Assembly: GCA_020137815.1 (NCBI GenBank)
Contig: CM035352.1
Coordinates: 6,386,001 to 6,450,000, forward strand
Length of the DNA: 64,000 nucleotides
Reading direction: 5' to 3'
DNA from: Hormiphora californensis
Lineage: Eukaryota; Animalia; Ctenophora
Part shown: piece by piece, positions 1,071 to 51,154 of the stretch
Layout of the letters: every line of letters begins with the position of its first letter
How positions within the stretch are numbered: the first letter of the stretch is position 1
Program-made: the position numbers and the translations under genes
The notes under the pieces: model-generated
The model's input: the letters and a program-made list of their open reading frames with translations, nothing else
Databases searched by the model: none
Told to the model about the DNA's origin: nothing

Positions 1071-6703
<5,633 letters not shown>

Positions 6704-7018
6704 TATTAGACACTGACAAACTAATGTTAGACACTGACAAATGACTCTCTTAGTCTTATAGGGCATACAGTGTAGATAGTTGTAGATAGTCTTAGGGCAT
6801 ACATAGTATGATACAATTTAGTGAGTTGTAGATAGTTCATCATAGTTACCAACCTACCTAAAATTGTGTAGTACATTTAGACTGGAGTTATAGGCGATGT
6901 AACCTATTATCATGATTATTATTAACTTTAATATTAACTTGTCTTATTATGAGAAACTTATGAGAAAGGGAAAGATGATGTTGGTAATGGTGAGCCTGAG
7001 GAACCGGTTACACCTACG

Positions 7019-7897
7019 ATGAAACACTATGTGAACATTACCACTGGGAACAGCGGAGAAGGAGAATCAGCGTTCTGTGCTGATAAGTGGAAGAATGTGG
7101 TCAAACCAAAGGTGGAAAGTGCTTTGAAGACTATACCGGTAGTGAGATCCAGAGTAAACAGTGACCATACCCGATTATACTTCCCTAATGAGGACCAGAT
7201 GAAGGAAGCAGAGAAAGTACTGACTCCTCTTGCACAGGATTGTTCAGTGTCATTTTTCTCAGAGGAAACCAAGAAGCTTGAACCAAAGGTGACGATAAAT
7301 GACTTGGGCCCCGACCTACTTGAAAAGGAAGCTATCCTGGCGGCGATCTTGGACAAGAATGAGGATATCAGGAAGCTGTATCATGAGGATAAGAAGTTAA
7401 AAGTGGTGTTTGTGAACGAAAGAGACAGGTATGCAGTGATCCAGATGGCTCCAGAGATCCGGCGGCTTTTGTCTAGCAGTGGGGATAGACTTAACTTGGG
7501 TCTTCGGCAACATTTTGTCAAAAACAGGTATCATGTGATTCAATGTTATCACTGCCAAGGATTTGGTCACATGGCGGGCTCTGTATATTGCCCTCAGAAG
7601 GATGATCCTGTATGCTGCTTTTGTGCTGGCACACATCAGACGAAGGATTGTAGAGCGAAGAAGAACAATGAAACAGGCAAGATGAAGTGTGTGAATTGTG
7701 AAGTTGGAGGATCACGAGAGGACAAGAAGTATGCGAAGACCCACACGGCTTCAAGTATGTGGTGCCCTTCGTACATTAACGAGCGAGCACGGCTAATGGA
7801 GAGGACTTCAGGTGTGAGCAAAGAGGAAAAAAACATGTACTGGACGAGGACCAAAGAGGAACTACTCAGGAAAAGACTTGGAAGATTGGGACACTAA
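7019..7897 (+). CDS. LINE ORF1p, gag-like CCHC zinc knuckles
   Basis: CYHCQGFGHMAGSVYC, CCFCAGTHQTKDC, CVNC..HTASSMWC; frame is open from 6953. Confidence 0.85.
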   Translation: MKHYVNITTGNSGEGESAFCADKWKNVVKPKVESALKTIPVVRSRVNSDHTRLYFPNEDQMKEAEKVLTPLAQDCSVSFFSEETKKLEPKVTINDLGPDLLEKEAILAAILDKNEDIRKLYHEDKKLKVVFVNERDRYAVIQMAPEIRRLLSSSGDRLNLGLRQHFVKNRYHVIQCYHCQGFGHMAGSVYCPQKDDPVCCFCAGTHQTKDCRAKKNNETGKMKCVNCEVGGSREDKKYAKTHTASSMWCPSYINERARLMERTSGVSKEEKNMYWTRTKEELLRKRLGRLGH

Positions 7898-28705: not shown

Positions 28706-29237
28706 TGTTTAAAAAAATTCTTAACTTGAAAAAAAAAGTTTTGTCTACTTTTGTCTACATTTGTCTACTTTTGTCTACTTTTGTCTACACTTTCATTTTC
28801 AAAATCTGGTGCAATGTTCCTGTAGACAAAAAAAAAGGTGACGGCCCCCCCCTAGCGCTCAAGGGTAAGTTAGCCGAAATTTCAAAGTTGGCGCTAATAA
28901 TTGGCGCCAATTTTCCATCCTATGACCCTAAATATTCAACAAATTGGCGCCAATAGTTGGCGCCAACTTTCGCCAGAGTTGGCGCCAAAACTTAGGGTCA
29001 AGGATGGGTGGCGCCAATTTCAGAATTGGCGCCAATTTTTTAGGGTTCACCCAAGTGAACCGCCAAAAGCCGGCGCCAAAAAGAGCTTTGGCGCCAAAAA
29101 AAACCGGCGCCAAATCGCGTTTTGGCGCCGGTATTTTTTATTGGCGATAATATTTGGAGCCAATAATGGTTTTTGGCGCCAAAAAATCGAAAATTGGCGC
29201 CAAAAATTGGTCACTTAGGGTCATGACCCTTTTACCT

Positions 29238-30570
29238 CAGTTTGGCGCCTATTGGCGCCGATTGGCGATCGCCAATCTTGTTCAACCGCCAATAATTGGC
29301 GGTGATTGGCGCTGCCGCCAATCGGCGTTTGGTACCTTTGGTGAAAAGAGGGGAACCAGCCGCCAATTGGCGACGATTGGCGCCAATCGGAAACTTTGGC
29401 GCCAAAAGTATTGGCGCCAAATTGGCGCCAATAGGAACATTTGGCGCCAATACTTTTGGCGCCAATTTGGCGCCAATCGGAAACTTTGGCGCCAATACTT
29501 TTGGCGCCAATTTGGCGCCAATCGGAAAATTTGGCGCCAATACTTTTGGCGCCAAATCTTTTGGCGCCACTCTGTTTGCAGGTTACCACTCTGTTTGCAG
29601 GTTAAAATGACGAGACACAAGATGATACTAACAAGATGATACATACAAGATGATAGAACATGATAACAAGATACAAGATCATAGAATAGGTGGCAATGAA
29701 ACCAACTCGATGCTGATTGGTAGTATTTAAAACAATGCTGTACTGTGACATTTGTGTATAATTTTTTTTCGTGATTCTATATCTTGTGTTTAGTGTTATT
29801 TCAGACAGGGTGGTACGGTTCCGGGACAAATACCTTTGAACCACCCTGTCTTGTCATGGTGACGGTGTTACATATACACTGTATAATATGTATACAGGTA
29901 CTGTTACATATACATATGTAACAGTACCATGACAAGACAAGGTGGTTCAAAGGTATTTGTCCCGGAACCGTACCACCCTGTCTGAAATAACACTAAACAC
30001 AAGATATAGAATCACGAAAAAAATTATACACAAATGTCACAGTACAGCATTGTTTTAAATACTACCAATCAGCATCGAGTTGGTTTCATTGCCACCTATT
30101 CTATGATCTTGTATCTTGTTATCATGTTCTATCATCTTGTATGTATCATCTTGTTAGTATCATCTTGTGTCTCGTCATTTTAACCTGCAAACAGAGTGGT
30201 AACCTGCAAACAGAGTGGCGCCAAAAGATTTGGCGCCAAAAGTATTGGCGCCAAATTTTCCGATTGGCGCCAAATTGGCGCCAAAAGTATTGGCGCCAAA
30301 GTTTCCGATTGGCGCCAAATTGGCGCCAAAAGTATTGGCGCCAAATGTTCCTATTGGCGCCAATTTGGCGCCAATACTTTTGGCGCCAAAAGTATTGGCG
30401 CCAAAGTTTCCGATTGGCGCCAATCGGCGCCAATTGGCGGCTGGTTCCCCTCTTTTCACCAAAGGTACCAAACGCCGATTGGCGGCAGCGCCAATCACCG
30501 CCAATTATTGGCGGTTGAACAAGATTGGCGATCGCCAATCGGCGCCAATAGGCGCCAATCGGCGCCAAAC
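29238..30570. repeat. ~620-bp-arm palindrome built on a TTGGCGCCAA satellite
   Basis: ~29238-29860 is the reverse complement of ~29927-30570; the mirrored ORF translations in the track confirm it. Confidence 0.92.
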
Positions 30571-33500
30571 TGACCGCCAATTGGCGCCAAAATGGCGCCA
30601 ATTTGGGTAGAAGGGCCACGGCCCTTGAACACCGCCACGTGGCGGTTTTAACCGCCACGTGGCCCCTGGACGTGGCGTCAATTCTCAGGACGTGGCGCCA
30701 ATGAGCCTTTTTGGCGGTGTTCATGTGGCGTTAATAGTCGAAATTGGCGCTTCGAATTGGCGCTTTTCTTTTTTGGCCCCAGGGGCGTGGCGTTGGCCCC
30801 AGGACGTGGCGTCAATTTTGAAAGGATGGCGCCAATGGATTTTTGTCGATTTTAGCGCCACGTGGTTTTTTGAATTTTCGGTGTGGCGTCAATAATTGAC
30901 GCCACATAATTGGCGCCACATAAACTCCGCCACATCAAAGCGCCAAAGTAATTATTAGCGCCATTTACATGGCGCTAATTGAGTTCTTACATGGCGATAT
31001 ATTTACATAAACACAGCTCTTTTTTAACTGTTCAATCCTTGATGCCTCTGTGGGTCTTTAGGGACTTCTACGGGCATTCAGGGACCTCTGGTGTCCTCTT
31101 GGGGCGTTTCAGGGGACTCTAGAGAACTTTGGTGGCTTTTTGGGGGCCTTGTGTGCTCATCTGGGGCTGCATTCGATCTTTCTGGGCTTTTGAGGGACTC
31201 TAATCGACTCTAGTGGCCTCTAGGGGTCTCTTGGAGCCTTCTAGGGGGCTTTTAGGTGACTCTAGCGCCTCCTGGGGGTCCCTAGGAGCCACTAGGGGGT
31301 TTCTGGCATCAGTTTATATGGCGCCAATTTACATGGCGCAAAAAAATTAGCGCCAAAAATTAGCGCCAAATGATAGGCCAAAAAAACAAATTGGCGATTC
31401 GAATTTTTCGGGTGTGGCGTCATCCGAAAGCGCCAAAAAATTTTGACATCTCCGCCACTCAAAAATTGACGCCACGTCCTGGGGCCAACGCCACGTCCCT
31501 GGGGCCAAAAAAGAAAAGCGCCAATTCGAAGCGCCAATTTCGACTATTAACGCCACATGAACACCGCCAAAAAGGCTCATTGGCGCCACGTCCTGAGAAT
31601 TGACGCCACGTCCAGGGGCCACGTGGCGGTTAAAACCGCCACGTGGCGGTGTTCAAGGGCCGTGGCCCTTCTACCCCAATTTGGCGCCAAATTGGCGGTG
31701 GTGCGCAATCGCCAACTATTGGCGCCAATTGGCGCCAATGTACCAAAAAATCCCGTGAAATCGGGTCTTTATTGGCGCCGATTGGCGCCATTTGGCGCCA
31801 ATCGGCGCCAATAAAGTGCGTCCTAATAGATCTTCCATACTACCCACTATTTGCTTAGTTTACTGTATGACCATCCCTGATATTCGCCCGTAGGGCGAGC
31901 GGGCTTACTAGTAATTATAATACAAACGTCACACCCGAACTATATCTAATGCAAATTTGCCATTTCGGTATGCGATCCCCCATATCATAGTGCTGGTGAG
32001 CGCCCGGGACCCAATCGAAATCTATCAATCGATCTAGTTTTTTTTAGATGGGATAAAGTAGTCCAATATCGACATCTCGTGATGAAAAGAAAAAAAGTTA
32101 AACAAACGGGCACTGGTGTCATAATATTTCCTGGTTTTATCAACTACACAATAGCCTCCACACACACTTCATGTGGTGTGACGTGTACGAGTAGTAGTAC
32201 AATTTCATAGAACAACTAAAAAGTAATAAGAGATGAGACCGGATGAGAGACAATATTATATACCTCACAAAATCACAACACTATTAATATTATGGATTTT
32301 GAACACTCTGCATTAGATAGAGACTTGAGCTGGAGACATCGAAGATATTGATAAACTCGTACTGCACTAGGATTCTGTAACTACAAAGCCCACGCGATGA
32401 GAACTGTTGTTACGATCTGCTAACGAATCACAAATTAATGAGAATTTTGATGAGATAGAGAGGGAAGAGTGAAAACAAAAGGGATCAGATGATGAATCAA
32501 TCTTTAGTGAACTATAGATGGGCGATAAATCTATATGAAATAGAGATCTCACCACGCAACAAGGATGGAGTATATAGACGGGTAAAGTGAATTACACTAA
32601 CCTGATAGTGCCGTGTAGATGGTCCCTTCGTCCCTCATGGTCCTTATCCTTAGCTGGGAGCGAATATATGAGATTATTCGTGAATTTAATTACGTTATAA
32701 AGAGTGATTAGTTTTATAGAGTGCTAGATTTATAGGGTCTTCGCAGACGAGAAAGTAGAAACTATGCCAATATTTTGTATTGTTTTCGCGTTCGTTAGAC
32801 TAAGAGTAGTTTCCGCTTTCGAAAGACGAAAGTGGAGGATCGAAACAACCCTGAACACGGAAAAGTAAAAATAATGTGAAGATGTTCCATATCATATTGT
32901 ACTGAATAAAAATGTTCAGTCCGAAAGTTCCAACATTTTTCTACACATGTGACTGGGTCACCTGCACATAACTAGCAGCTGCTTTTTCCTCTTAGCTGAT
33001 ACTTTCGATGGTAGAGACTATAGCCACTGAAAGTAAGCAGCTGCCCATGATCATGGTTGGGTCACTTTGACTGAGAGACACTTTATGTCAGCTTTGTCAA
33101 GATTTGATCCTTACAAACAGATCACGGCTATAAGTTTAATTCACTGTGATAAATGAGATATTTCAAGTTGGGACATAGTTGCCAGTTGTTATGTTCTAAC
33201 CCTCCCTTTACAGTTTACATTTGTAAATTTTCGCAAGCAGAGCTTACAAAAAGGTAATGGATATGCAAAAAGTCAGATTTTTTAACTATCACTCCCTTTC
33301 GGTGCACGTAATTTGTATTTACGCGTGACAGCACCCTCTCATGTTCATCTGAATACGGAAAACCGCATGTTTTCTGAAAGTGCATAATTTTCAAAGTCCT
33401 TCAAATTTTAGTTTCAAGAATTTGGTTGAGAAACAAAGGAATGACAGCCACAATTTCTCTATCAGACTATCAACAACTAGTATACCAGGTGTCACAGGAT

Positions 33501-34580: not shown

Positions 34581-37556
34581 TCAGACATTTACAGCACATT
34601 GAGGGGAAATATCATTGGGAAGTGATGGATAGCCTCTGACAGGGGGACGGTCATAAAAGCCTGTCAAGTAATTGCCCAGGGATGATTTGAATTGACCTAA
34701 GCTTCCGCAAGAGTTAACGGCCGCTGGCAACCTGTTCCACAGGTGAGCAGCTCTCGGTCCGAAGGAAGAATGGTACTGATTCGCTCTCCAGGTCTCAGCC
34801 CGATAAGGAAACACTGGTGGGACTAACCTCATACCCAGCCTTGCACTGTGTTGGAACACAAGATTTGCAGAATTCGGAACAAACCCATGGATCGTCTTCC
34901 ACACATGTATCAACATGTAACGTTGTCTCCTACGTTGAAGAGACATCAGGTTGAGAACTTTTAATCTCTCCCAATAGTCGAGATTCTGCATTCCATCAAG
35001 TCTTCTAGTAAAACACCGTTGGACGTTCTCAATTGACTTTATGTCCCCAGACTTTGACGGATCCCAGACCAGACAACAATACTCCAAAATTGGTCTGACC
35101 AGTGATTTGAAGAGTTGCAACATTACCTCTGGTGAACGATCTCGAAAAACACTGAAAATCCACCCAGATAGGAGAGAGGCTCTCCTCACAATGGTGGCAA
35201 TGTGCTTAGACCAAGAACCATCCGAGGACATCTGGACACCCAAGTCACGGACATCAGCTTCAGGAAACAGTTGTACTCCAGATTTTGTGGTATACGAACA
35301 TATGTCAACTGAAAAAGGGAATTCCTTGTAGATTGCCGACTTGTTCAGTCTGTAACTCAGGAGTTGAAATTTCTGATCATGTAGCACCATATTGTTTATC
35401 TTTGCCCATTCTGTAACCTTCAAAAGATCAGATTGTAAACCCTCCTGATCAACAATATCTGTTATGGCTTTCATTAACTTGGTATCATCCGCAAAGGTGA
35501 GACACATACTACCATCCAGTACAGATTCCAGGTCCAGTATATAAATAAGGAAGAGGAGAGGGCCCAGGACACTACCCTGCGCCACCCCGCTGAGCACCTC
35601 CACCCATGGTGACCTAACCCCATCCACCATCACACACTGCTGCCTGCCCAGGATCCACGCACTGATCCACTGATGAAGTTTTCCTCCAATCCCGTACCTT
35701 TTCAACTTAGCTAGCAACACATTGATATCCACCGAATCAAAAGCTTTAGAAAAGTCTAAATAGAGAACATCAACTTCTCTATCTCCACAGAGTTCAGTTA
35801 GGATGTAGTCAACATGAGATAACAGTTGGGACATAGTACTACGTCCCTTTCGAAAACCGTGTTGCGTTTCACTCTGTAACTGCATCTCATCCAAATAATC
35901 AGCTATTCTCTTTCTGACTAGCCGCTCAAACACCTTCGATAGGTGACTGGTGATCGACACAGGGCGATAATTTGCCGTCGTAGACTTCGACCCTTTCTTA
36001 AAGATCGGTGTTATGAACTGCTGCTTTAAACAATTTGGAACAGCCCCATCTTCAAATGACTTGTTCCATAACATCCATATAGGATAAGACAAGCTGCTGT
36101 TACATCGTTTCAGAATGCACGAAGGAATGCAGCCCGGAGGTGAGGCCGAAAAGGGTTTAAGCTCCTCTAGTGCACTCTGGATACAATTCCGTGAAAAATC
36201 CATGGTCGTCAGGATCTCACCAAGGTCCTCAATGTTACCCGCTGCCACAGAGGGATCAATAGCCGCCGGATTGCTGAAGACGCTAGCAAACTGGTGTTGT
36301 AGTAGGTTAGCCTTCTCCAGGGGGTCCACAGTTAAGGAACCATCCGCACGCTCAAGGGGGGCAACTGATGATTTAACCTTGGAGTTCTTTTTAACGTGAG
36401 TATAAAAGTACTTGGGGTTTTCCTTGATAGCACCCACAGCCTTCCTCTCCACTTTCTTGTCCCTTGATATCAGATGGGATTTGATTTTCCCAATTAAACA
36501 ATCCATCACCGATTTCCACTTTACTGAATCGTTCTTACGTTTATCAAGTTTACGCCTCCTGCTAGTCAAATGCCTGAGCTCCTTGTCTACAAAGTCCTTT
36601 CGCATTTTCTTCACTCGGCAATGTGACTTAACCACCTTGAACACTCTATCTCGAACAGCTTCCACAAACAATGAGCCATCCTCATCACCCAGATCCTCAC
36701 ACTCAACAAGCAGTTTGTCCCAATCAGTAGCTGCAAGGTCAGCATCAATACTCACAAAGTCCGCTGAATGGAGATCCAGTTGCCGATAACCTTCCAGTTT
36801 GCCAGGCAGAAATAGACTTACTGGACCGAGAGGGTTGAAGGTGAGGTGACATGATACCCACAGATGATCTGATACACCCTCATCTGTAATGGAAATATCG
36901 CTGAAGTAGTCCGGTCTGTTGGTGAACACGAGATCTAACGTATTGTTGCCCCTGGTAGGGCCCTCTACAACCTGGGATAGAAAATTAGTGTCCATAAAGT
37001 CCGATACAACATTGTAGTTAGGCTGATCAACTGGGACTGATGACCCGTCAACCCAATTAAAGAGTGGGAGATTAAAATCACCCGATAATACCACTTCTGG
37101 TAACCCGCTCTCACTGTACTTATCGATAAATGTCTGTAAGGTGTTCATTAGTCTCTGAAAGTCCAAAACACTCGACTCTGAACGATAAACAGCAGCAAAT
37201 ATGGTGTTAATCTGGCCAACATAGACAGCTTTCATATTGTTAAACGCACTAGCAAAACATGTACTATCAGAAACAGCCAGCGACGAGTGAACATACAGAG
37301 CACAGCCTCCACCGACTCTACTCACTCTGTCACTCCTAAAAACATTATATCCCGGTATCTCAACCTGGGCATCTGAGTGATACCCTTTAAACCAGGTTTC
37401 AGTAACTGCAATGGCTACTGTAGGAGTTTTCTCATTTCTTATATAATCTCTAATAAGACCGAGTTTCCAGCACGTATCACCTGCCGGACTTAGACTCCTT
37501 GCATTAAGCAGTAATATGTTACTCGTAGTAGAAACAGTCCCTAACGATCTCTCCAT
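34581..37556 (-). CDS. CR1 ORF2p, endonuclease plus reverse transcriptase
   Basis: LLNARSL, VTETW, GDFN, LDLV, SDH; NYRPVS, QHGFR, YLDFSKAFDSV, GVAQGSVLGP, FADD, YWERL..LQRRR. The frame stays open ~105 nt upstream of the ATG. Confidence 0.95.
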   Translation of the reverse strand: MERSLGTVSTTSNILLLNARSLSPAGDTCWKLGLIRDYIRNEKTPTVAIAVTETWFKGYHSDAQVEIPGYNVFRSDRVSRVGGGCALYVHSSLAVSDSTCFASAFNNMKAVYVGQINTIFAAVYRSESSVLDFQRLMNTLQTFIDKYSESGLPEVVLSGDFNLPLFNWVDGSSVPVDQPNYNVVSDFMDTNFLSQVVEGPTRGNNTLDLVFTNRPDYFSDISITDEGVSDHLWVSCHLTFNPLGPVSLFLPGKLEGYRQLDLHSADFVSIDADLAATDWDKLLVECEDLGDEDGSLFVEAVRDRVFKVVKSHCRVKKMRKDFVDKELRHLTSRRRKLDKRKNDSVKWKSVMDCLIGKIKSHLISRDKKVERKAVGAIKENPKYFYTHVKKNSKVKSSVAPLERADGSLTVDPLEKANLLQHQFASVFSNPAAIDPSVAAGNIEDLGEILTTMDFSRNCIQSALEELKPFSASPPGCIPSCILKRCNSSLSYPIWMLWNKSFEDGAVPNCLKQQFITPIFKKGSKSTTANYRPVSITSHLSKVFERLVRKRIADYLDEMQLQSETQHGFRKGRSTMSQLLSHVDYILTELCGDREVDVLYLDFSKAFDSVDINVLLAKLKRYGIGGKLHQWISAWILGRQQCVMVDGVRSPWVEVLSGVAQGSVLGPLLFLIYILDLESVLDGSMCLTFADDTKLMKAITDIVDQEGLQSDLLKVTEWAKINNMVLHDQKFQLLSYRLNKSAIYKEFPFSVDICSYTTKSGVQLFPEADVRDLGVQMSSDGSWSKHIATIVRRASLLSGWIFSVFRDRSPEVMLQLFKSLVRPILEYCCLVWDPSKSGDIKSIENVQRCFTRRLDGMQNLDYWERLKVLNLMSLQRRRQRYMLIHVWKTIHGFVPNSANLVFQHSARLGMRLVPPVFPYRAETWRANQYHSSFGPRAAHLWNRLPAAVNSCGSLGQFKSSLGNYLTGFYDRPPVRGYPSLPNDISPQCAVNV

Positions 37557-38758
37557 TGACTTAGAGTCGGGCGTATCGTCTCTATACTCTCGAACCTCTT
37601 GTCTAGCATCTGTTTCATTCTCACTTCCATTCTCCCGAACAGTCTCTCTAAAAAAGAATCCTCATCAAATCGGGGTGGTTCACGGGTGTCATTGGAGCTA
37701 CCACTCGGATTTTGGGATCGTGGTATCTCCGTATCCCTAGCATAGTTCGTCTCAGCCCTTCCGACACCAAAAGACAGGGTTCCGTTCCGATTGAGATTGA
37801 GAGTCTCGTCCACTGCAACTCGTCGGGTGTTCTTGAGATGCTGAAAACGACAGTCCTTCTTGAGGCATTCGTGCCTGAACTGGGAAGAGCGGCAGATAGG
37901 TGGATGGTAGTATCGACACTCTTTCCCCAGCTGACAGCCGTATTTCTTCATGGACCCATGGGCGCAGTATCTCCGGCACATTGGGGGATGTGACTTCTGG
38001 CATGAAACTCCGTCGATCTTCTTCGTTCCGTAGCGGCCGTACTTGCACCGATTTTGTAGGTAGTGTTGGCACACCGGGATCGGCTTATCATCGTCTTTCT
38101 TCTTGCCCTCATCAGCCTCCTCCACACTGTTGATTTTATGACCGGGTGGCTTCTGCTGGTGTTCTGGTTTGGTGTCTCCAACCTCTGACATGAAGCTAAA
38201 CCTCCTCCTTAGGGCGTCATCCGAAGCCTCACTTGCTGCACTCTTGGGAGGGCTTGCAAACTCCCCACTGGAACCCACAAACTTTTCCAGTGTGTGTTTC
38301 TTGCAACACATGTGACAAATCCACTTGAAACCTGGAATAGAGCACAGCGGTTGCTCCTGGATTAGGGTGCAATTATGGCTCCCTGCCCCACAACTTCCAC
38401 AATTGAACCTGGATTTCTCACACCTTTTGATCACATAGTCTTTCTCGCATGCCTCACAAAATTGCGGAAATAGACTTTCAATAGCCATTATCAACCAGTC
38501 GATGAGACTGGCTTTGTCCCGGTACCGTTTTTCCTTTCCGTCATCAGTACGGGGTTTCCCCCCAAAGAAAAGCGCAGCCTCCTCCAAAACAATGTCCGTA
38601 AAACGATCAAGTGCCTTGAGATTGGTCTGGTACCTTTTAGCTGTAGGACTGTAGGCCTTCACGATCCGTTTCACCTCGTCACTACAGTCGGGGTCATCAC
38701 ATAGCTCCGACAGCACTGCTTTCTGTTTCGCTAGTATCTCGTTTGACATATCCGGCAT
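37541..38758 (-). CDS. CR1 ORF1p with a PHD-like finger and three CCCH zinc fingers
   Basis: CEAC..CGSC..HNC..WICHMC; CQHYLQNRCKYG..CQKSH, CRRY..CQLGKECRYYH, CRSSQFRHECLKKDCRFQH. Confidence 0.85.
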   Translation of the reverse strand: MPDMSNEILAKQKAVLSELCDDPDCSDEVKRIVKAYSPTAKRYQTNLKALDRFTDIVLEEAALFFGGKPRTDDGKEKRYRDKASLIDWLIMAIESLFPQFCEACEKDYVIKRCEKSRFNCGSCGAGSHNCTLIQEQPLCSIPGFKWICHMCCKKHTLEKFVGSSGEFASPPKSAASEASDDALRRRFSFMSEVGDTKPEHQQKPPGHKINSVEEADEGKKKDDDKPIPVCQHYLQNRCKYGRYGTKKIDGVSCQKSHPPMCRRYCAHGSMKKYGCQLGKECRYYHPPICRSSQFRHECLKKDCRFQHLKNTRRVAVDETLNLNRNGTLSFGVGRAETNYARDTEIPRSQNPSGSSNDTREPPRFDEDSFLERLFGRMEVRMKQMLDKRFESIETIRPTLSQWRDR

Positions 38759-38977
38759 CGTCTTCCGGGGTGGTCAGGCAGACATTTGGCTGAAACTCAA
38801 ATTAATTTGTTTAAAGTAGTGTTGAAAAGTTTATCCCTTATTTATCTCTTCAGAGCCCGAAACGTGAAAACACTTAGTACATTTATTTGATCCAAGTTTG
38901 ACAAATTCAATCTTTTCCTGCAACTTAAATGCTTTTAGGGAGCACCTAAACCACTCAGGCAAGATAGATGCTTTTAA

Positions 38978-41225
38978 CCCTTTGACGGCGACAGAGCATA
39001 TATGCTACAGTCTATTCTAGGCGGCCTGGAAGTCCTTATGTTTTATCTAGGTGGTCCATATTTTGTCACAAGCTAGTTTTAGGGATTATGAACCTAAAAC
39101 CACGTCCAGATCAGCTCAGAAAATCAAGAAAAAAATTTATAACCCTTCTAAGGAGGCTAATTTCAGCCTTTTTTTAAAAACATTTCTCATTTTTTTGTTT
39201 TTTGGGGGCACAACTAATCCTTTGAAGGAATAAAAGTGCTTGACATAACCTACCGAATGCAAAAAACCGCATCAAAAAATATTGAAAATTGAATGAGTTA
39301 TTAACATTTTAGTCGCCGTATCATATATGATACTATCGCCCGTAAGGGAATTCTAGTAACAAATCTAAATTGTACAAGTTTGTGGGTGCTATGGCATAAA
39401 TTTATGCTTTCATGAGGTTTGTAGCTACAAGTTCTACAATCGTGAACGGTTTTTACCTGGAAAAGAACCCAAATTAGAGATTTGTATCATATATGATACT
39501 ATCGTCCTAAGGGTAAATTCTCCTAAAACATCCATAATTCGGGCCAGAAAAGGAGCTAAGAGACAAATCAGGGCACTAAAATGTGTAGAATCATCGCATT
39601 AGTGGGGGTAGAGCACATATTTAGGTCGCTATCTGGATCCCTAATTGAGATAATTGGATAATTAGCCAATTATCTGTCCCGCGCGTGCTAATAAATGAAT
39701 CTTTGCTCTGGGAAGGAGTTATGAGACAAATGGGGGCACTGAAATGTGTAGAATCATCACATTAGTGGGGGTATAGCACATATTTAGGTCGCTATCTGGA
39801 TCCATAATTGAGATAATTGGATAATTAGCTAATTACTTGCCCTGGAGCGCTAATAAACGAGACTTTACAGAGTATACAAGACAAGTGGGGGCACTAAAAT
39901 GTGTAAAATCATCGCCTTAGTGGGGATAGAGCACATAGCTGAGTTTCTATTCCCACTCCCAAATGAGATAATTGGATAATTAGCTAATTGACGGTTGCAC
40001 ACCGTCCACTTTTCACCAAATCTCGTGGTTTCTAGGTAATCCTGAGCTCTTTTGCTCAATCTAAGGATCTTCTGACATCCCCTAACATCCCTAAACCCCT
40101 ATAACCGTGTGTCCAAACAATAAATGTGGGAAACTGTAGTACATTAGAGGTTGAACGTGTTGTAGGAGCAATAGGATATAAAAAATTCTTTAGGATTGTA
40201 GTTGGATCTTGGATGTATGAGAGGTTCAAGATGGAGCCTAGGATTCTAGAGAGCTGAAGACAGTATCTAGGGTTGAATCGAGTGCTATACTATTGTGTAA
40301 AACGAGTCAAAGGTGATACAAATGGGGTTAGGGGATGTCAGAAGATCCTTAGATTGAGCAAAAGAGCTCAGGATTACCTAGAAACCACGAGATTTGGTGA
40401 AAAGTGGACGGTGTGCAACCGTCAATTAGCTAATTATCCAATTATCTCATTTGGGAGTGGGAATAGAAACTCAGCTATGTGCTCTATCCCCACTAAGGCG
40501 ATGATTTTACACATTTTAGTGCCCCCACTTGTCTTGTATACTCCGTAAAGTTTCATTTATTAGCGCTCCAGGGCAAGTAATTAGCTAATTATCCAATTAT
40601 CTCAATTATGGATCCAGATAGCGACCTAAATATGTGCTCTACCCCCACTAATGTGATGATTCTACACATTTTAGTGCCCCCGTGTGTCTCATAACTCCTT
40701 TCCAGAGCAAAGTTTCATTTATTAGCACGCATGGGATAGATAATTAGCTAATTAACCAATTATCTCAATTAGGGATCCAGATAGCGACCTAAATATGTGC
40801 TCTACCCCCACTAATGCGATGATTCTACACATTTTAGTGCCTTGATTTGTCTCTTAGCTCCTTTTCTAGCCCGAATTATGGATGTTTTAGGAGAATTTAC
40901 CCTTAGGACGATAGTATCATATATGATACAAATATCTAATTTGGGTACTTTTCCTGGTAAAAACCGTTCACGATTGTAGAACTTGTAGCTACAAACCTCA
41001 TGAAAGCATAAATTTATGCCATAGCACCCACAAACTTGTACAATTTAGATTTGTTACTAGAATTCCCTTACGGACGATAGTATCATATATGCTACAGTGG
41101 GCCCAGCAAAAACTACATGTCGGAATTACAAATTTCCTTTTCGAGGCGTTTTGTGTTGATAATATCTACTTATAAACGAAAAATTAGACAATTCTATCGA
41201 GCCAATCCTTCTCGCCGTCAAAGGG
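38978..41225. mobile_element. Non-autonomous piggyBac element with long internal inverted repeats
   Basis: TTAA-CCCTTTGACGGCGA ... TCGCCGTCAAAGGG-TTAA; internal arms ~39318-40086 and ~40326-41095, each with about three ~157-bp sub-repeats; no transposase. Confidence 0.9.
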
Positions 41226-41463: not shown

Positions 41464-42351
41464 GGGAGCCCTCAGCCCTTAAATCAAAAGTTTTGAAAAA
41501 CGCTTGTCAGCGCCATCTTAAAAATCTGAACTGAAACCCAAATTTACTTCCTTTGCGCGGCGTTATCGGCAGACATAAACTGTATTTTGTCGCGCGTTAC
41601 GTGACGCGCTCCTTTATGCACAGAATCCGGGCCGAACGCGTTTTGTCCGATCGAGCGAGATTTTTTTTTAAATCGAGACGAACTTTTTCAAAATCTTGCC
41701 TTGAAAAGCGCTGCCTTATCCCGCACTATCGGGGGCCAGCAACGTTTGCCAAAATCTTGCCCGCCTTCAACTTTTCTGATGTACTTTGGACCCCCTAGCG
41801 ACTGTAATCTACAACACTGGTCTACATAATGCATACTTGCGCTTGATACTTGGGTCGAAAAAAAGTGGACAGTAGTAGGTGGACAGTGGTACTAGGGAAA
41901 TGGATGACGAGATTTCCGGATCGCCCACCGGTTCTCGGATACCCAAAACAAAACAACAATTCAATCTTGGACTGGATACGGATCGTTTCCAGGGAGGGGG
42001 AGGCTCTGTGAGGAACTGACACCTGTGTAGTTTGTACACGAAGAAGATTACAAGATTACAAGATTACAAGTACCACAGTGCCAAGGCACGCGATTCACGA
42101 ATAGCCGGAAATTCGTGAGACCAATCCAATATTTCGGTTGGGGTTAGCGCTTGAGGAAGTTTATCTTTGGATTAGCCCCAAACGGTGGTTTGGCGGTTAG
42201 AGCCATTTTGGTACATGGTACTGGCAGCGCTCACCTGGTAGGTATCGAAACGGCGCCCCGCGCCCTACACGGAAAATGGAAATGCCAAAGCTACCCAAAT
42301 CCGTGCATTCCTTCTACTTGGCCTTGTTTATAGTAACCCATCCGTGTAGCA

Positions 42352-44907
42352 ATGTTTTCTAAACTGGGGACCTACATAACTGCCTGTCGTTATGAAACCT
42401 TCACAATCAGCCTGTTTCCCGCTCTCCTAGCGTACATCTTGACAGAAGATGTAAAGGGAAACACAACTGCTACATTTTCATTCGTCCTCACTGCTGTTCT
42501 GGTTCTTCACGCTGGAGCGAACCTGTGTAACACTTATTTTGATTACAAAGACAAGGTAATTTACAAGTCCACTTTTCTACTAAAATATGAATTCGATTTT
42601 TTATGTTGTTTTCTTCTTCTAGATGATACAAGATGTTCCTCTCAGGTTGATACAAAGGAACACAATAATGACCCTACCTTGGTTGAGAAGATTCTAACGG
42701 AAGATGAAGTTATAAACGCAGGATGGGTCTGTTTTGCCTTCTCCATGATGTTCTTCGGTAGCGGGGTGGTCTTCATGGGACGAGCCCACTTGATCCCCTA
42801 CATTCTCTTCTTCAAGGGCATGTTTGTGGGTTACAACTACAGCTCAGGCATGAGGTTCAAACACAATGCCCTGGGGGAGTTAGTGGTTTATTCCATATTT
42901 GGACCTACCATATCAGTTTTTGTGAGTTCGTGTCTTAATAAAGGCATGTTTTCATGGTTGGCTTTTGTAGCGGCCAGCCCCTTTGGACTTCTCGCCGCTG
43001 CGGTTCTCCTTTCAAACAACATCAGAGATGCAGGTTAGTGGTGTATTGTAGTAGTGGAAGAATTTTAATAAGGGAAGTAGGATTGGTGGTGTATCTAACT
43101 ATATCTAATGCAAATTTGCACGGAAATGTGACACCCTATCGTCAATGTGACGACGTGATCCGTCAATGTGACGACGTGATCCGTCAGTGTGACGACGTGA
43201 TCCGTCAGTGTGACGACGTGATCCGTCAGTGTGACGACGTGATTCGTAGGTATCACGTATCACAAGTGCTTGAGAACTGCTTGCGAACTTGAGGGGTCAC
43301 ATCACATACATAAAAGGGAGAGAAAGAGAGAAAGAGAGAAAGAAAAAGAGAGGGATCACATCACAAGGTAGCTCGCTTAGCTACCTGGTCTATCACTAGG
43401 ACTTTGTGGGAGAGAGAGAGAGAGACAGAAAGATAGAGATAGAGGTACATAGCGACAGACAGACAGAGTGAGGCAGAGAGGAAAAGATAGAAACAGGTCC
43501 CTCGATTTGCGATCGGTACGATCGCCCCAGTTTTGCTAGTAAACTATAATGTAGAAGTATTTTATTAGTTGGAAAGGATGCATCATGCAGGATTGGCTTG
43601 GTTTGGTTCAACTGTACATTATACATGATCCCCCCTACATGATACATCTCACTGCACCCCGAAGGCATCTGGCTCAAGTGGTACTGTTATATCCGTCTGT
43701 CGTCGGTGTCATTGTCTTTCGAGTAACACTAATTTGTCTTTGTAGTGTTGTTAGAACACTGCCCACCGTTTGTGTAACAAATTGGGATTATTGAGTGACG
43801 CTGTCTCACTATTGTGATGCAGCAATGATCTAGACGTCCTCATGTTGCAGGCAATGATAAGGAAAGGCAACCTGTAGTTTATATGTTACGTATTTGTGAT
43901 CTCAACAGTCCCCCTGCCCACGCAAATTATTCATAGAGATATCTGTAGGAATAGTTCTAAGGGATGCACGTTAGTGGTATATCAGTCAAATTCTCTCGGG
44001 AAGAGTTTTATGAACGGTAAATCGACTGTTGTTGTTGTTAGTACATAAAGTAGGAAGGACGGGTGCAGGTGTAGACTAATAGTTTATACACTGGTGTTTG
44101 ATCAAGATCAATTAAATATTTTCTTCCGCAATTTACTGGTACTGGGTGTGGGCCATGTAGTCAATACTAACTGTACTGGGTGTGGTGACACTGTGGAGTC
44201 TATACTAACTGAGATGGGAACTGTCACATCCGTATACAACATTGTACACTCACACATACACGTGACAGAGTTCGCATTTGTCTATTGTACAATGTACAAC
44301 TAACCTATTTCTAAGAGATTGAAGAAATTTTGGTTAAAAACTAATCAATATCAAATATATTTATTAATCTGAAGTGTGTTATCACGGCATATTCATTGCA
44401 GGGAACGATTTGAAATGTGGAGTTCATACGCTAGCTAACAGACTTGGATTAAAGAAGTCGCTTAATGTATACGCCGGACTCCTCATTCTACCCTATCTCC
44501 AGGTATGTCGCGCTGGCAAACACATGTGCTTTCACTGATTATGATGAATCCCCTTTAATCGATCTCCCTCTAACCTTGGTGGTACCCACCTGTTACTTTC
44601 CGATCCGCGATCCGATCCGACGAGGCTGGCACAGCTTCTTGCGAGAGAGGTTACAAGTATCTACCAACCTCTAACCCTAAATAAACTACTAATTCCTCTA
44701 CAGGTGACTGGTATAGTGTTGATGTGGGAGCAGTACTATCCCCTGCTGTATCTCTGGGTCGTGGCCCCCTTCTCTCTCTTCTGTGCTGTCCGGCCACACC
44801 GACAGGATACTACAACGGCCATTGCCGAGATGTTCTCCCTTACCCTGAGTCACTATCATCTTGTGGGAGCGGTTTATCTTACACTGTGGACTTATTGTAT
44901 GCAGTAG
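42352..44907 (+). CDS. UBIAD1: UbiA prenyltransferase domain-containing protein 1 (UBIAD1/MenA-like), 4 exons
   Basis: Exons 42352-42555, 42646-43033, 44402-44502, 44704-44907. Motifs HAGANLCNTYFDY..VD....DPTLV, YS..FKHNALGEL, LLSNNIRD..ND...GVHTLA..LG; multiple TM segments. Confidence 0.9.
43094..43399 (+). mobile_element. Mini non-autonomous Helitron with internal 21-bp minisatellite (UBIAD1 intron 2)
   Basis: a|TCTAACTATATCTAATGC 5' end; hairpin GGTAGCT-cgctt-AGCTACC (43367-43385), then CTAG; five copies of cgtca(a/g)tgtgacgacgtgat. Followed by G rather than the usual T. Confidence 0.6.
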
Positions 44908-46179: not shown

Positions 46180-49100
46180 CTCTCTCTCTCTCTCTCTCTC
46201 TTTATATTTTCAGAGGACATATAGAGGATGTGATGGATATTTGTTGGTCGCCTGATGGGAAGAGTATTCTATCGGGTTCCATTGATAACAGTGCAATCGT
46301 TTGGGATGTAAAATCCGGTAAGAACGCTTGTAATATTCACAACACCGTTTTTCCGACAGCTGAGACTTGAAGTTGTCACCCAGGAATTTAGTTAGGAAAT
46401 CTGACTCTTACATTTCACAATAGAATTGAAACATGCTTGCAACATTTGCCTAGCTAGACTTCTGACTTTGTTTCGTGCGCCTCGCCCAAATGTAAAGGAG
46501 GGTTAGAACATAACAACGCATAACAATGCAACATACAAAATGTTCTAGAATAATGAACTATCTTTATTTGTTGTCAGGGAAGAAGTCGTTCATTCTAAAG
46601 GAACATGGTCACTATGTACAGGGTGTTGCCTGGGACCCTCTCTCGTACTACCTCTGTACTATATCTAGCGACAGGTGCAAACTTCGACATTTCTAAATTA
46701 TAATAAAAGAGATTCAATATCGAACTTTTTCTGAATTTGACAAACTATTCACTCTTACTCAGGACCTTGTTGGTGTACGAGGCAGCACGTTGCAACCTAC
46801 TTCATAATGTATCAAGGAATAAACAACTCAATAGTGAGGTTAAAAGTAACAAACTATTCGTTGAGGAGGGAGCTACAAAATATTTCAGAAGACTTGCTTT
46901 TAGCCCTGATGGTGCTTTTCTTCTTGTACCAGGTGAATAAGTGGATAAAAGTAGAAGGTTTATGCCCATGGCAACTAATAACAGGTGTTACTGTTATTTC
47001 CCGGTTATTACCGGATTCTTAGTTGAATTTTCTTACCGCTAAATCCAGTTTTTCTCATTCATCATTGTTATTACAGTCGGACCCCGATTTAGTGGCATCC
47101 TCGGGGGAAAAAAAATCCTGCCACTAAATCGGGGTGCCACTAAATCGGGGAGATCCATATTTGGCCCATAAAAACCTATTTTATGCCCAAAATGCTATAC
47201 TAGGACTAAAAACACCTCTAACTGTTATATGCAATATTCATGTATTGATGACATGATAATTTCTTTAGTAGAGGGGTTGTAGCACCGGGAGGTAATGAGT
47301 AAACACACACACACGCATTGAGCAAGCTCAATGTTTAGCTATTCTCCGGCTGGGTATAGGGCTGAGGTACTGGCAAGATATAGTAGGATCGCTACTGCCC
47401 ACATGTCAAGTTTATTCGGATATACAAGTTTAAAAGGTTGGGGGGTCACAGGGACCGTCTTAGCTTCGCTCCCCGTTAACATTGCCTGTAACCGGGGGTC
47501 CACTAAGCTCTCATATATACTCGGCCATTACTCCCAACCACTAGTAGTGGTTTTCAGTACATCTTATACTGGTAAATCCGTATAGAAACAATCCTTGTGT
47601 TTTAATAGCGATCACTCCGTATATCTTGCACTGACCCAGTATTACCACACATTAATTGTGCAATTGGCACTATGGGATTTCTCCACTGCGGCCGGCACTG
47701 TGAGTAATCAGTAGGGTGTGCTATTTTTCCCAACTCATAAATCAAATCCAATTTTCACAAAGTTTACCCCTAGAATGAGTTCCTACGATCATTCTAAAAC
47801 ATTTGGTAAAAAAATTTTAGTCCTACCCTGGCCCAATTACGTGGGCCGATGTATGCCCATATATGGGCATATTCATATCAAAAAATGTTTTTTGGGGCGT
47901 TATTTCGAAAAAACCACACATATGAATCGCCTCATGAGAACCAGTACAACCATTATTTCCAGTCTGCACCTTCAGAACTCCATTTTATAATGAAAATTTT
48001 ATTTTTTTTTCATCTTTTTTTCTTGCACATTTTCCTACTTTGCAGTATTAGTTGAGACGAATTTTAACTTTTTGAGATTTTATTTGTCGGAAACCAAATT
48101 CCGGTTGTAACCGACTACTTTTGACCTGCTGAACACGATCCCGTTCATGAAAAAGCTCTCAAAATTGAAGAAAATGGCCAAAATGAACATTTTTAGTCAA
48201 AAATGAACATTTTTGGTCCAAAATGAACATTTTCAGGTCAAAAATGACCTTTGGCTAACTTTCATGATACACATCCATTCTGATCGGTATCAAACCGCTG
48301 AACACGACCCTGACCATAAAAAGTTGATATCAAGAACATGCCAAACACTGGTGTAAAACACACATATTTTCCTTTTTTCGGTAAAAAAGTAAACTTTTTT
48401 AATCGCCTGGCCCACGTAATTGACATACACTATCCCAATTCCGTTTTCAGGATGTAGTAGACAATTGTCCATAGTTTCATATCTACCCTTAACCTTTTGG
48501 CCAAGTCGACAAAATTTTCACTTAGCACACCCTAGTAATCAGCCACTATATAAGCTACATCTTGGTTGCTAACCAGTCAATACATTAGTAGAGGGGTTGT
48601 AGCACCGGGAGGTAATGAGTAAACACACACACACGCATTGAGCAAGCTCAATGTTTAGCTATTCTCCGGCTGGGTATAGGGCTGAGGTACTGGCAAGATA
48701 TAGTAGGATCGCTACTGCCCACATGTCAAGTTTATTCGGATATACAAGTTTAAAAGGTTGGGGGGTCACAGGGACCGTCTTAGCTTCGCTCCCCGTTAAC
48801 ATTGCCTGTAACCGGGGGTCCACTAAGCTCTCATATATACTCGGCCATTACTCCCAACCACTAGTAGTGGTTTTCAGTACCTCTTATACTGGTAAATCCG
48901 TATAGAAACAATCCTTGTGTTTTAATAGCGATCACTCCGTATATCTTGCACTGACCCAGTATTACCACACATTAATTGTGCAATTGGCACTATGGGATTT
49001 CTCCACTGCGGCCGGCACTGTGAGTAATCAGCCACTATATAAGCTACATCTTGGTTGCTAACCAGTCAATACATTAGTAGAGGGGTTGTAGCACCGGGAG

Positions 49101-51154
49101 GTAATGAGTAAACACACACACACGCATTGAGCAAGCTCAATGTTTAGCTATTCTCCGGCTGGGTATAGGGCTGAGGTACTGGCAAGATATAGTAGGATGA
49201 TAATTTCTGATTAGAAATAGAAAACTTTAAAATAATTTTTTCAAAAAAATTGTGAAAAATTTTCTAAGTTATACAAGCCCGTCCGATTTGTGTTTCGAAT
49301 CGGTGCAGCTGACTGGATGTCCTGTCTAATTAGCAGGTTCGAAACGAACCGATACGTGATACCATGCCGAATCGGGGCACCCTAAGCGGGTGAGGAAGTA
49401 TCAAAATTTCAAAATAACTTTTTCTCTCAAAATTTATGGGGAGCACCGATCAAAGTATTGACAATCGTACTGTGAAATTTTGCAAAAAAGTTTTAAAATT
49501 TTTTTTAAAGTATACCAGCCACGTCCGAATCGTGTTTCGAATCGGTGCATCTTATCGCATGTCCTGCTGCTAATTAGACGGTTCAGAACGAATCGGAACG
49601 TGATCCCCATCGAATCGAAATTTTGACTCTTGGTGAACTTGAGATTCAATGGCCCCATGGGGATCACGTATCGGTTCGTTACGAACCGTCTAATTAGCAG
49701 TAGGATATGCGATAAGATTCACTGATTCGAAACACGATTTGGACGTGGCTGGTATTCCGTTGAAAAATTTTCAAAAAAATTTCAGAAAAATTTCACAAAA
49801 AAAATTCAAAAAAATTTTTGGGGGAAAAAAATCGTGCCACTAAATCGGGGTGCCACTAAATCGGGGGCCACTAAATCGGGGTCCGACTGTATTATTATCT
49901 TACAGCGGGTCAAGTTCCTACAGCCGATGATGTACAAAATGTAACATTCCTATTCGCTCGATCAAATCTTAAAACGTAGGTACCAGCAGTATCCAGTTCT
50001 ATTTTTTAGATAGATTCCTAGCGTGCCCTTCCGCTCAACTATTTGTTAATTGAGTAAATTAAATTTCCAGTTTAGTTGTTTAGTTCATTTAACACTCTGT
50101 ATCCCGCCCCATAGCCCCGTCTGCTACCTACCCGGTCCTCGCAAGCCTGTCTGTGTAGTACGGTGTTGTCCTGTCCTATTTGAGCTACGGAACAAACAAA
50201 CAGATAACAAACAACAACGATTTAAGTAAGTAAAAGGAGCTTTATCGCTGACCCCCTCCCATCCCCCACTGTTTTGGTACCAAATTGAGATTGCCTCTAA
50301 CTATAATATAACTAACCACTTTCCCCATTCCATCTCACATTTCAGATTACCCAACTGATTAATTCAAACCTCCTCAGGTTACCTTACAGAATAGTCTACG
50401 CAGTGGCGTCTCTTGGTGAAGTTATAATTTACGATACTGAGCAACTCACCCCTATATGTCTTGTATCTGATATCCACTACGCCTGTATAACTGACCTCGC
50501 ATGGTAAGTTCTAACCACCACCACCCCGGTCCTATTCCCTTCTATGTTAGTGCGCCAAATCCAAAAACAACAGCTATCAAGCTTGAAGCGGGCCAAAAAG
50601 CTTACATGCCCAGATTTGTCTTTTGTTCGCGCCAAAACTTTTCGTCGCGCGCGGTACGCTATCGGGTAGACTGGTGCGCGCGAACAAGGTCACGTGATCA
50701 ATTTTTGGAGCCCGAAAGCCAGAGTTCGAGTTCGGGCGTGCCACCACTTTGGTCAACGAGTGCGTCAAATATAATGGCTTCAACGACAAGTTTTTCTACT
50801 GGTCATTTGCTCTAGCTTCTACCATATATTCAAACTTCGACAAAAATGAATTCTAAACCTGTTTTGCTCGTTTTGCACCGGATGGATCGCCGTATTGCCG
50901 TTATAACACCACTCAGTGTATTATATGTGGTGCCCTGAGATTTGAATTTGCGCGGGAAACTAACCATCCCTCCCTTCAGGTCGAGTAATGGACGTGTTCT
51001 GATGATCACTTCATACGATGGCTTCTGTACTATCCTATCATTCGAACAAGATGAACTTGGTACATCCTACAGCAAAACCCCTTCTCCTCCTCCTCCATCG
51101 GAAATGGATGTTTCTTTGACAGACTCTAAAGAAAACGTGACAAATAACACGTGA
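45156..51154 (+). CDS. CHAF1B: Chromatin assembly factor 1 subunit B (CAF-1 p60, WD40), 10 exons
   Basis: Exons 45156-45278, 45436-45571, 45907-46030, 46214-46317, 46578-46674, 46763-46932, 49906-49975, 50115-50225, 50378-50503, 50980-51154. [111 protein letters not shown]. Confidence 0.93.
47265..49196. mobile_element. 2.25-copy tandem array of a 489-bp non-coding unit with 12-bp TSD (retrozyme-like insertion)
   Basis: Units start at 47265, 48585 and 49074 (third is 123 bp); atgataatttct at 47253-47264 and 49197-49208; copies 1 and 2 differ by one substitution seen. Confidence 0.75.
47712..48534. mobile_element. Non-autonomous hAT element nested in unit 1 of the 489-bp array
   Basis: 12-bp TIR TAGGGTGTGCTA, perfect 8-bp TSD gtaatcag; empty site visible in unit 2 at 49024-49031. 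Confidence 0.93.

What the first reader, a model, noticed from the sequence alone, without database searches (positions are those of the whole stretch)
47253..49208. Retrozyme/circular-RNA-like insertion: 2.25 copies of a rod-folding 489-nt unit with a 12-bp TSD and no recognisable ribozyme
Seen: after removing the nested hAT, the insert is 489+489+123 nt, nearly identical between copies, flanked by atgataatttct. The unit is self-complementary in nested order: 48688-48714 with 48926-48961, 48737-48753 with 48884-48900, 48756-48764 with 48851-48859 (G-U on the + strand), plus hairpins cattgagc-aa-gctcaatg, cttag..ccccg..cgggg..ctaag and aaccact-agt-agtggtt. The stems carry bulges and mismatches, unlike the near-perfect DNA foldbacks elsewhere in the window. 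Known: metazoan non-LTR retrozymes are non-coding tandem oligomers with long TSDs that spread via ribozyme-processed circular RNAs. Inference: more-than-unit-length reverse transcription around an RNA circle. I found no canonical hammerhead (CUGANGA..GAAA), HDV, twister or hairpin core by eye, so it may use a divergent or new self-cleaving motif or another circularisation route.
Basis: partly seen in the sequence, partly recalled or inferred. Interest (0 to 1): 0.85.

Follow-up and report, generated by a model that had tools for sequence, protein, structure and literature searches.

The report
Structured tandem Penelope-type parasite, no hammerhead
This is one young copy of an abundant, non-coding 489-base mobile repeat whose folded shape is conserved in related families and which is likely pasted into the genome by Penelope-type jumping genes; unlike the known animal 'retrozymes' it has no standard self-cutting RNA motif, and a circular RNA stage is untested.

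Summary
The anatomy is confirmed: 489+489+123 nt, one mismatch, 12-bp TSD, a nested 823-bp hAT-like element, all inside a TA-flanked MITE. Public contigs show a high-copy family plus two relatives. These keep the predicted fold by 7 compensatory pairs (4 and 3; null means 0.68 and 0.10), so the structure looks selected although whole-unit folding is only z about -2.

The left end is fixed: contigs from three further runs start within 1 nt of it. It lies in a covarying stem-loop, and two inversion joints are head-to-head if the minus strand is the RNA. This matches Penelope-like (PLE) insertion with internal RT initiation. A circle with free endpoints is not needed.

Rfam and my descriptors find no canonical ribozyme. 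One split, variant hammerhead on the minus strand would cut 1 nt from the other end (0 of 2000 shuffles). However, it has U at G8, is energetically disfavoured, and a sister family lacks its GAAA.

Best reading: a non-autonomous PLE-mobilised, retrozyme-like element without a working canonical hammerhead. The partner PLE was not found (no genome held). This scan noted similar PLE-mobilised tandem elements on other DNA, mostly with hammerheads.

The parts
47253..47264 (.). 12-bp target-site duplication, left copy; AT-rich, contains ATT on both strands
47265..47711 (-). Unit copy 1, positions 1-447. 47265 is the fixed end (inferred 3' end, RT start)
   Evidence: fixed end
47712..48534 (.). Nested 823-bp hAT-like non-autonomous DNA transposon: 12-bp TIR, 8-bp TSD at 47704-47711 and 48535-48542; a later insertion
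   Evidence: hAT label inferred from the 8-bp TSD
48543..48584 (-). Unit copy 1, positions 448-489
48585..49073 (-). Unit copy 2, complete 489 nt, GC 45.4%, longest stop-free stretch 87 codons
49074..49196 (-). Partial copy 3 (unit 1-123), inferred 5'-truncated copy forming a pseudo-LTR; 2-nt microhomology with the TSD
49197..49208 (.). 12-bp target-site duplication, right copy
48693..48949 (.). Predicted long bulged rod (unit 109-174 with 295-365) plus apical domain; pairs 157/312, 160/309, 193/258 and 197/241 covary in relatives
48636..48653 (.). Hairpin, unit 52-69; closing pair covaries in family C
49043..49092 (-). Stem-loop across the unit junction (6-bp helix, unit 459-464 with 14-19) that encloses the fixed end; two compensatory pairs in family B. 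The 16 nt before the end are the most A/C-rich 16-mer of the minus strand (13 of 16)
48996..49040 (-). Candidate variant hammerhead, core half: stem I strand, CUGAUUA plus an extra C (U at G8), stem II, GAAA, 3-bp stem III strand; function doubtful
   Evidence: against:
48698..48710 (-). Candidate hammerhead, cut-site half (AUC triplet plus 9-bp stem I strand). Predicted cut 48707|48706, equivalent to 49196|49195 at the insert's right end
47074..49889 (.). Host MITE (TIRs starting CAGT, TA duplication; pogo/Tc1-like by recall) into which the element inserted, between exons of a WD40 gene

Best explanation
It is a young copy of a high-copy, non-coding 489-nt tandem repeat with a conserved fold, likely a non-autonomous element mobilised by a Penelope-like retrotransposon (PLE). 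Shown: the anatomy, the TSD, a fixed left end shared by other copies, head-to-head inversion joints in other copies, and covarying helices. Inferred: tandem copies are transcribed on the minus strand into more-than-unit-length RNA. A PLE protein nicks AT-rich DNA (ATT in the target) and starts reverse transcription at a fixed internal site in the A/C-rich junction stem-loop (unit position 1). It copies 489+489+123 nt from a linear multimer, by template jumps, or round a circle (not resolved). The 5' end is joined through 2 nt of microhomology, and staggered nicks give the 12-bp TSD. The fold would serve protein binding and RT positioning; no working canonical ribozyme is required.
For: Fixed end: X16 contig joins a 191-nt unrelated flank at unit 1, X12 contig a 21-nt flank at unit 2; 3 X8 contigs with mixed flanks join at unit 489. 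No poly(A) or repeat tail in the window or in the X12 and X16 flanks. 2 of 2 opposite-strand joints (X12: unit 102|305; X6/X8, one sample: 188|64) join high-coordinate ends, i.e. 5' to 5' on the minus strand. That is the head-to-head arrangement reported as most frequent for PLEs (PMC3846280). PLE partial tandems with a 5'-truncated upstream copy, and ribozyme-free Naiad/Chlamys with multi-copy head-to-tail non-autonomous partners such as MRC1, are described in 10.1101/2021.04.23.441226. PLE TSDs of 8-10 bp. Internal RT start in an AC-rich stem-loop, ATT cleavage preference and dispensable hammerhead in the anole PLE (PMC11167929). Here the end lies in a covarying stem-loop (P about 0.009) and is the top A/C-rich window, 1 of 489 (window size chosen after looking). 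Covariation: family B 4 pairs, P 0.004; family C 3 pairs, P 0.00015.
Against: No autonomous PLE partner or pLTR homology could be sought (no genome); the only RT genes in the window are two APE-type LINEs. Only 6 contigs from 3 runs support the fixed end, and 222 loose-end rows were not shown, so other ends are not excluded. One inversion joint comes from an RNA library and both are single contigs per run; they could be artefacts, and L1-type twin priming gives the same geometry. The optional 30-40-nt PLE tail was not seen. G-U asymmetry is mixed between strands. The right end coincides within 1 nt with a hammerhead-like cut site, which this explanation leaves as chance or relic.
Confidence: 0.6

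Rival explanations
1. A true retrozyme with a split, variant hammerhead on the minus strand (U at position 8; halves 146 or 290 nt apart). It cuts at unit 123|122, releases 489-nt monomers that circularise, and PLE RT then copies these, ending at the cut site.
For: The only hit of a relaxed descriptor on either strand has stem I 9 bp plus stem III 3 bp and a cut 1 nt from the insert end. In 2000 shuffles, 19 reach such stems and 0 do so within 3 nt of an end (descriptor fixed after looking, other ribozyme classes also tried). The variant at unit 121 turns a stem I G-U into G-C. Unit 105-132 round the cut is nearly invariant in families B and C. An extra base between A9 and stem II is typical of PLE hammerheads (PMC4209133). 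The cut lies 122 nt upstream of the fixed end; in the anole PLE the cut is about 85-92 nt upstream of an RT start.
Against: C3 cannot pair with U8, and single C3G or G8C changes abolish cleavage in a PLE hammerhead. No listed variant at 5% or more restores G8. Family B reads GAUA for GAAA (one contig, depth 3.7), and one distal stem I pair breaks in B. Unit 374-456 does not align at 80% in family C. The active fold costs 13-34 kcal/mol against the MFE, with stem I probability at most 0.001. Weak hits near an end occur in 217 of 2000 shuffles. The X16 RNA-library contig runs through the site. No second copy ending at 123 was seen.
Confidence: 0.2
2. A structured RNA retroposed by an APE-type LINE (CR1/L2/RTE-like) from its 3' end, with twin-priming inversions; tandems arise by template jumping.
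For: TSD length and 5' microhomology fit target-primed RT in general. Two intact-looking LINE ORF2s are in the window. The inversion geometry also fits twin priming.
Against: No poly(A) or short-repeat tail, no similarity of the unit to anything else in the window including the LINE 3' ends, no tRNA or Pol III boxes. The fixed end is internal to a tandem junction stem-loop.
Confidence: 0.1
3. A TRIM/LTR-derived tandem, or a DNA-level (circle or satellite) insertion. The TG...CA 6-bp inverted repeat (unit 14-464) would be LTR ends, with a purine tract upstream.
For: Both family A and family B keep TG...CA ends with covariation, and a purine run precedes position 14.
Against: Insert ends (1 and 123) are not at those boundaries. 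The TSD is 12 bp, not 4-6. The TGG after the putative LTR and the TATA-like motif at unit 452 are lost in family B. There are no TIRs at the insert ends. Fixed ends with unrelated flanks argue against random DNA capture.
Confidence: 0.07

Closest known systems
Non-autonomous Penelope-like elements, e.g. Chlamydomonas MRC1 (Chlamys), and ribozyme-free Naiad PLEs (10.1101/2021.04.23.441226; passages seen)
   Same: [quoted passage not shown]
   Different: Here apparently in an animal; clear 12-bp TSD in non-microsatellite DNA; covarying rod fold; no autonomous partner identified
Animal non-LTR retrozymes (PMC7229834, passages; 10.64898/2026.07.22.740005, parts 1-3 of 5)
   Same: Non-coding tandem unit of a few hundred nt, GC below 50%, TSD longer than 4 bp, structured RNA, proposed PLE dependence
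   Different: No type I hammerhead, which defines the family; circular RNA untested
Anole Poseidon PLE, PAc (PMC11167929, parts 1-2 of 4)
   Same: Fixed internal RT start in an AC-rich stem-loop, AT-rich target with ATT, two-strand extension that could give head-to-head arms
   Different: PAc is autonomous and carries a minimal type I hammerhead; no tail or second start site was seen here

Membership tests
Animal non-LTR retrozyme | Non-coding tandem unit (150-450 bp; 51-972 bp in Li et al.), GC below 50% | tested here: met
   489 nt, GC 45.4%, longest stop-free stretch 87 codons
Animal non-LTR retrozyme | Canonical or minimal type I hammerhead in each unit | tested here: not met
   Rfam has no ribozyme hit to E 10; no CUGANGA/UUGANAA core on either strand
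Animal non-LTR retrozyme | TSD longer than 4 bp | tested here: met
   12 bp
Animal non-LTR retrozyme | Self-cleavage and circular monomer RNA | not testable with these tools
   Only contigs were available; closed 519-522-nt loops occur in DNA runs too and cannot tell circle from tandem
Hammerhead ribozyme (variant) | C3-G8 pair and conserved GAA of the core | tested here: not met
   U at position 8 in family A; GAUA in one family B contig
Hammerhead ribozyme (variant) | Three stems round the core, cut site matching an RNA end | tested here: inconclusive
   9+2+3 bp and cut 1 nt from the insert end; fold disfavoured by 13-34 kcal/mol
Non-autonomous PLE | Partial tandem with common 3' end and truncated 5' copy | tested here: met
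   Left end within 1 nt in the window and 5 other contigs from X16, X12, X8; assumes minus-strand sense
Non-autonomous PLE | Inverted 5'-truncated arm, head-to-head | tested here: met
   2 of 2 opposite-strand joints in other copies; absent from the window copy
Non-autonomous PLE | Variable TSD, AT-rich target, no poly(A) | tested here: met
   only one TSD could be measured
Non-autonomous PLE | Sequence shared with the 3' end or pLTR of an autonomous PLE | not testable with these tools
   No genome held
Non-autonomous PLE | Optional 30-40-nt tail (second RT start) | tested here: inconclusive
   Not seen among the loose ends shown; 222 rows hidden
TRIM / LTR retrozyme | Ends at TG...CA LTR boundaries, 4-6-bp TSD, PBS | tested here: not met
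   Ends at unit 1 and 123, 12-bp TSD, TGG not kept in family B
tRNA-derived SINE | tRNA-like head with A/B boxes and a 3' tail | tested here: not met

The most novel reading that the evidence does not exclude
An animal retrozyme that runs on a long-range, conformationally switched self-cleaving motif, either a U8 hammerhead variant split by 146-290 nt or a new fold. The conserved rod would hide the cut site in internal copies and in the circle, and PLE reverse transcriptase would copy from a fixed stem-loop back to the cut site.
Probability: 0.2. Interest if true: 0.8.

Novelty: new variant of a known kind. Interest (0 to 1): 0.5.

Why it matters
Animal retrozymes are defined by their hammerhead and proposed to depend on PLEs. 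A family with the same tandem, TSD-flanked architecture and PLE-type scars but no canonical ribozyme would show that the tandem form needs only a PLE-recognised RNA structure. Three families with covarying helices point to the cis-elements (junction stem-loop, rod) that a PLE protein binds, which can be tested directly in the existing in vitro PLE assay. If the split hammerhead proves active, it would be a core variant that I did not find in print (searches).

Tried and rejected
Rfam scan of 47000-49900 to E 10: 3 hits, none in the unit, no ribozyme. ARAGORN: 0 genes. Own descriptors from recalled motifs for HDV-like, twister, pistol, hairpin and hatchet: no complete motif on either strand; a pistol-like spacing at minus-strand position 276 lacks the other recalled elements. 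Canonical hammerhead scan of the whole window: 1 weak hit, inside a LINE. No other copy of the unit in the window. Metagenome pattern scans: 0 hits; 4 hits, all chance with no similarity beyond the pattern. Viral contigs: 0. Earlier findings by sequence and by place: none; by words: none.

Expression: RNA-library contigs hold the family (3 of 3 RNA runs laid, out of 6 RNA holders listed), but no silent-stretch control was laid, so transcription is not shown. Two RNA runs from the same sample as a DNA holder had next to none of the words, which is no proof of absence. Higher depth over unit 1-130 was first read as a shared terminal repeat, then set aside: summed contig depth is inflated by family B and is no copy number. 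A plus-strand TATA/initiator reading (unit 452) was dropped because family B alters it. Host group could not be determined (no hit; generic WD40 only). No supplements of any paper were read; consensus sequences of PLE or retrozyme families there could hold a relative.
Full report
Observation. The insert lies between two copies of a 12-mer (47253-47264, 49197-49208). With the nested 823-bp hAT-like element and one copy of its 8-bp TSD removed, it is 489+489+123 nt with one mismatch. It sits in a MITE (47074-49889, TA duplication) between exons of a WD40 gene. The unit has no long ORF, no tRNA, and no other copy in the window. Whole-unit folding is modestly better than shuffles: linear z -2.3 and -2.2; circular 4 of 100 shuffles as good on each strand. 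The rod signal is confined to unit 96-380 (z -3.5 and -4.4, 0 of 100).

Family. No genome was held. Of 24 listed runs, 20 hold the stretch or part of it, in 12 studies; I laid 8 of them. One DNA run of the possible source sample lays 2177 contigs on the 489 nt, so the family is high-copy; the number cannot be derived. Closed loops of unit length plus 30 nt appear in two DNA runs and one RNA run and fit tandem DNA as well as circles. Two relatives appear: B (about 85-87% alike, also in the organism's own runs) and C (about 93%, in one RNA run). The host is a marine eukaryote, probably an animal (inferred from introns and element types; not determined).

Structure is conserved. I placed the listed substitutions on pairs predicted at p at least 0.5 on either strand. 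Family B (35 substitutions in 216 covered nt) gives 4 compensatory Watson-Crick pairs, 16/462, 18/460, 157/312 and 160/309, against a null mean of 0.68 (P 0.004). Family C (19 in 321 nt) gives 3, 52/69, 193/258 and 197/241, against 0.10 (P 0.00015). Limits: seven B changes were read by eye from one loose end of a different contig, and variants near contig ends are unlisted. B also shows 3 double changes without a Watson-Crick pair (G-U on the minus strand) and 8 one-sided changes; C shows 7 one-sided changes. Watson-Crick covariation does not tell the strand, and G-U signals are mixed.

Ends and polarity. Other insertions begin at unit 1 (X16, 191-nt flank) and unit 2 (X12), and at 489 (three X8 contigs). 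None shown carries a poly(A) in X12 or X16; 222 loose-end rows were hidden. Both opposite-strand joints link high-coordinate ends (102|305 and 188|64). If unit position 1 is the 3' end, these are head-to-head, the common PLE arrangement (PMC3846280, passages). The fixed end lies inside the stem-loop closed by the covarying 459-464/14-19 helix (P about 0.009). It follows the most A/C-rich 16-mer of the minus strand (post hoc). The target is AT-rich with ATT. The anole PLE starts RT internally in an AC-rich stem-loop after cutting at ATT, and does not need its hammerhead in vitro (PMC11167929). Naiad and most Chlamys PLEs lack hammerheads, and non-autonomous Chlamys form head-to-tail multimers (10.1101/2021.04.23.441226). 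The mechanism is therefore inferred: minus-strand multimeric RNA, fixed internal start, 2.25 units copied, microhomology join. The partner PLE is not shown. Circle, linear multimer and template jumping cannot be told apart from these data.

Ribozyme. Rfam and descriptors for canonical hammerhead, HDV-like, twister, pistol, hairpin and hatchet motifs (motifs recalled) give no complete match. A relaxed hammerhead descriptor gives one candidate core, on the minus strand, whose best cut lies 1 nt from the insert's right end. Of 2000 shuffles, 1063 give any hit, 217 a hit near an end, 19 stems as long, and 0 both. For it: a common variant strengthens stem I, and the cut-site region is the best conserved part. 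Against it: U at G8; GAUA for GAAA in one family B contig; the core region unalignable in family C; 13-34 kcal/mol cost; no second copy ending there. I put a working ribozyme at about 0.2; relic or chance is more likely. Searches for such a core in print found nothing relevant.

Comparison. It works like a PLE-dependent retrozyme but fails the family's defining hammerhead test (PMC7229834, passages; 10.64898/2026.07.22.740005, parts 1-3 of 5; PMC4209133, parts 1-2 of 4). It meets the testable features of non-autonomous PLEs. A search for ribozyme-free non-autonomous PLE tandems returned only two papers, both already read. TRIM and SINE membership fail on ends, TSD length and missing signals. 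Earlier AI notes of this scan report hammerhead-bearing and one ribozyme-free PLE-mobilised tandem in other genomes; these are unchecked leads, not support.

Verdict: a real, young, structured mobile element; a new variant of a known kind; interest 0.5, and 0.8 if the split ribozyme and circle are real (probability 0.2).

Noticed in passing
window 47704-47711 / 48535-48542: The nested hAT-like element duplicated exactly the octamer that forms the candidate hammerhead core; probably coincidence.
   Followed up: no
window 6953-10821 (+) and 34581-38773 (-): Two intact-looking LINEs, each with an upstream ORF and a 1013- or 1026-aa APE+RT ORF (Pfam); 3' ends in short repeats.
   Followed up: partly
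window 3190-3986: 46-nt tandem array (17 copies) with strong C skew, containing a CCCTAA telomere-like motif.
   Followed up: no
window 29065-31812 and 39561-40864: Large foldback-like elements built from 45-nt and 163-nt tandem units that appear in inverted orientation.
   Followed up: no
window 49234-49792: The host MITE has an internal 136-bp inverted repeat and a third partial copy.
   Followed up: no
window 42337-43038; about 46216-46933; 11895-12266: Host genes: UbiA prenyltransferase (Pfam); WD40 exons resembling CAF-1B/HIRA (recalled; only generic WD40 hits); an exon resembling a P5-type ATPase (recalled; no Pfam hit).
   Followed up: partly
unit 194-199 / 239-243 (48778-48827): The apical helix appears in three different versions in families A, B and C (B read by eye from loose ends), suggesting a conserved apical domain of unknown role.
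   Followed up: partly
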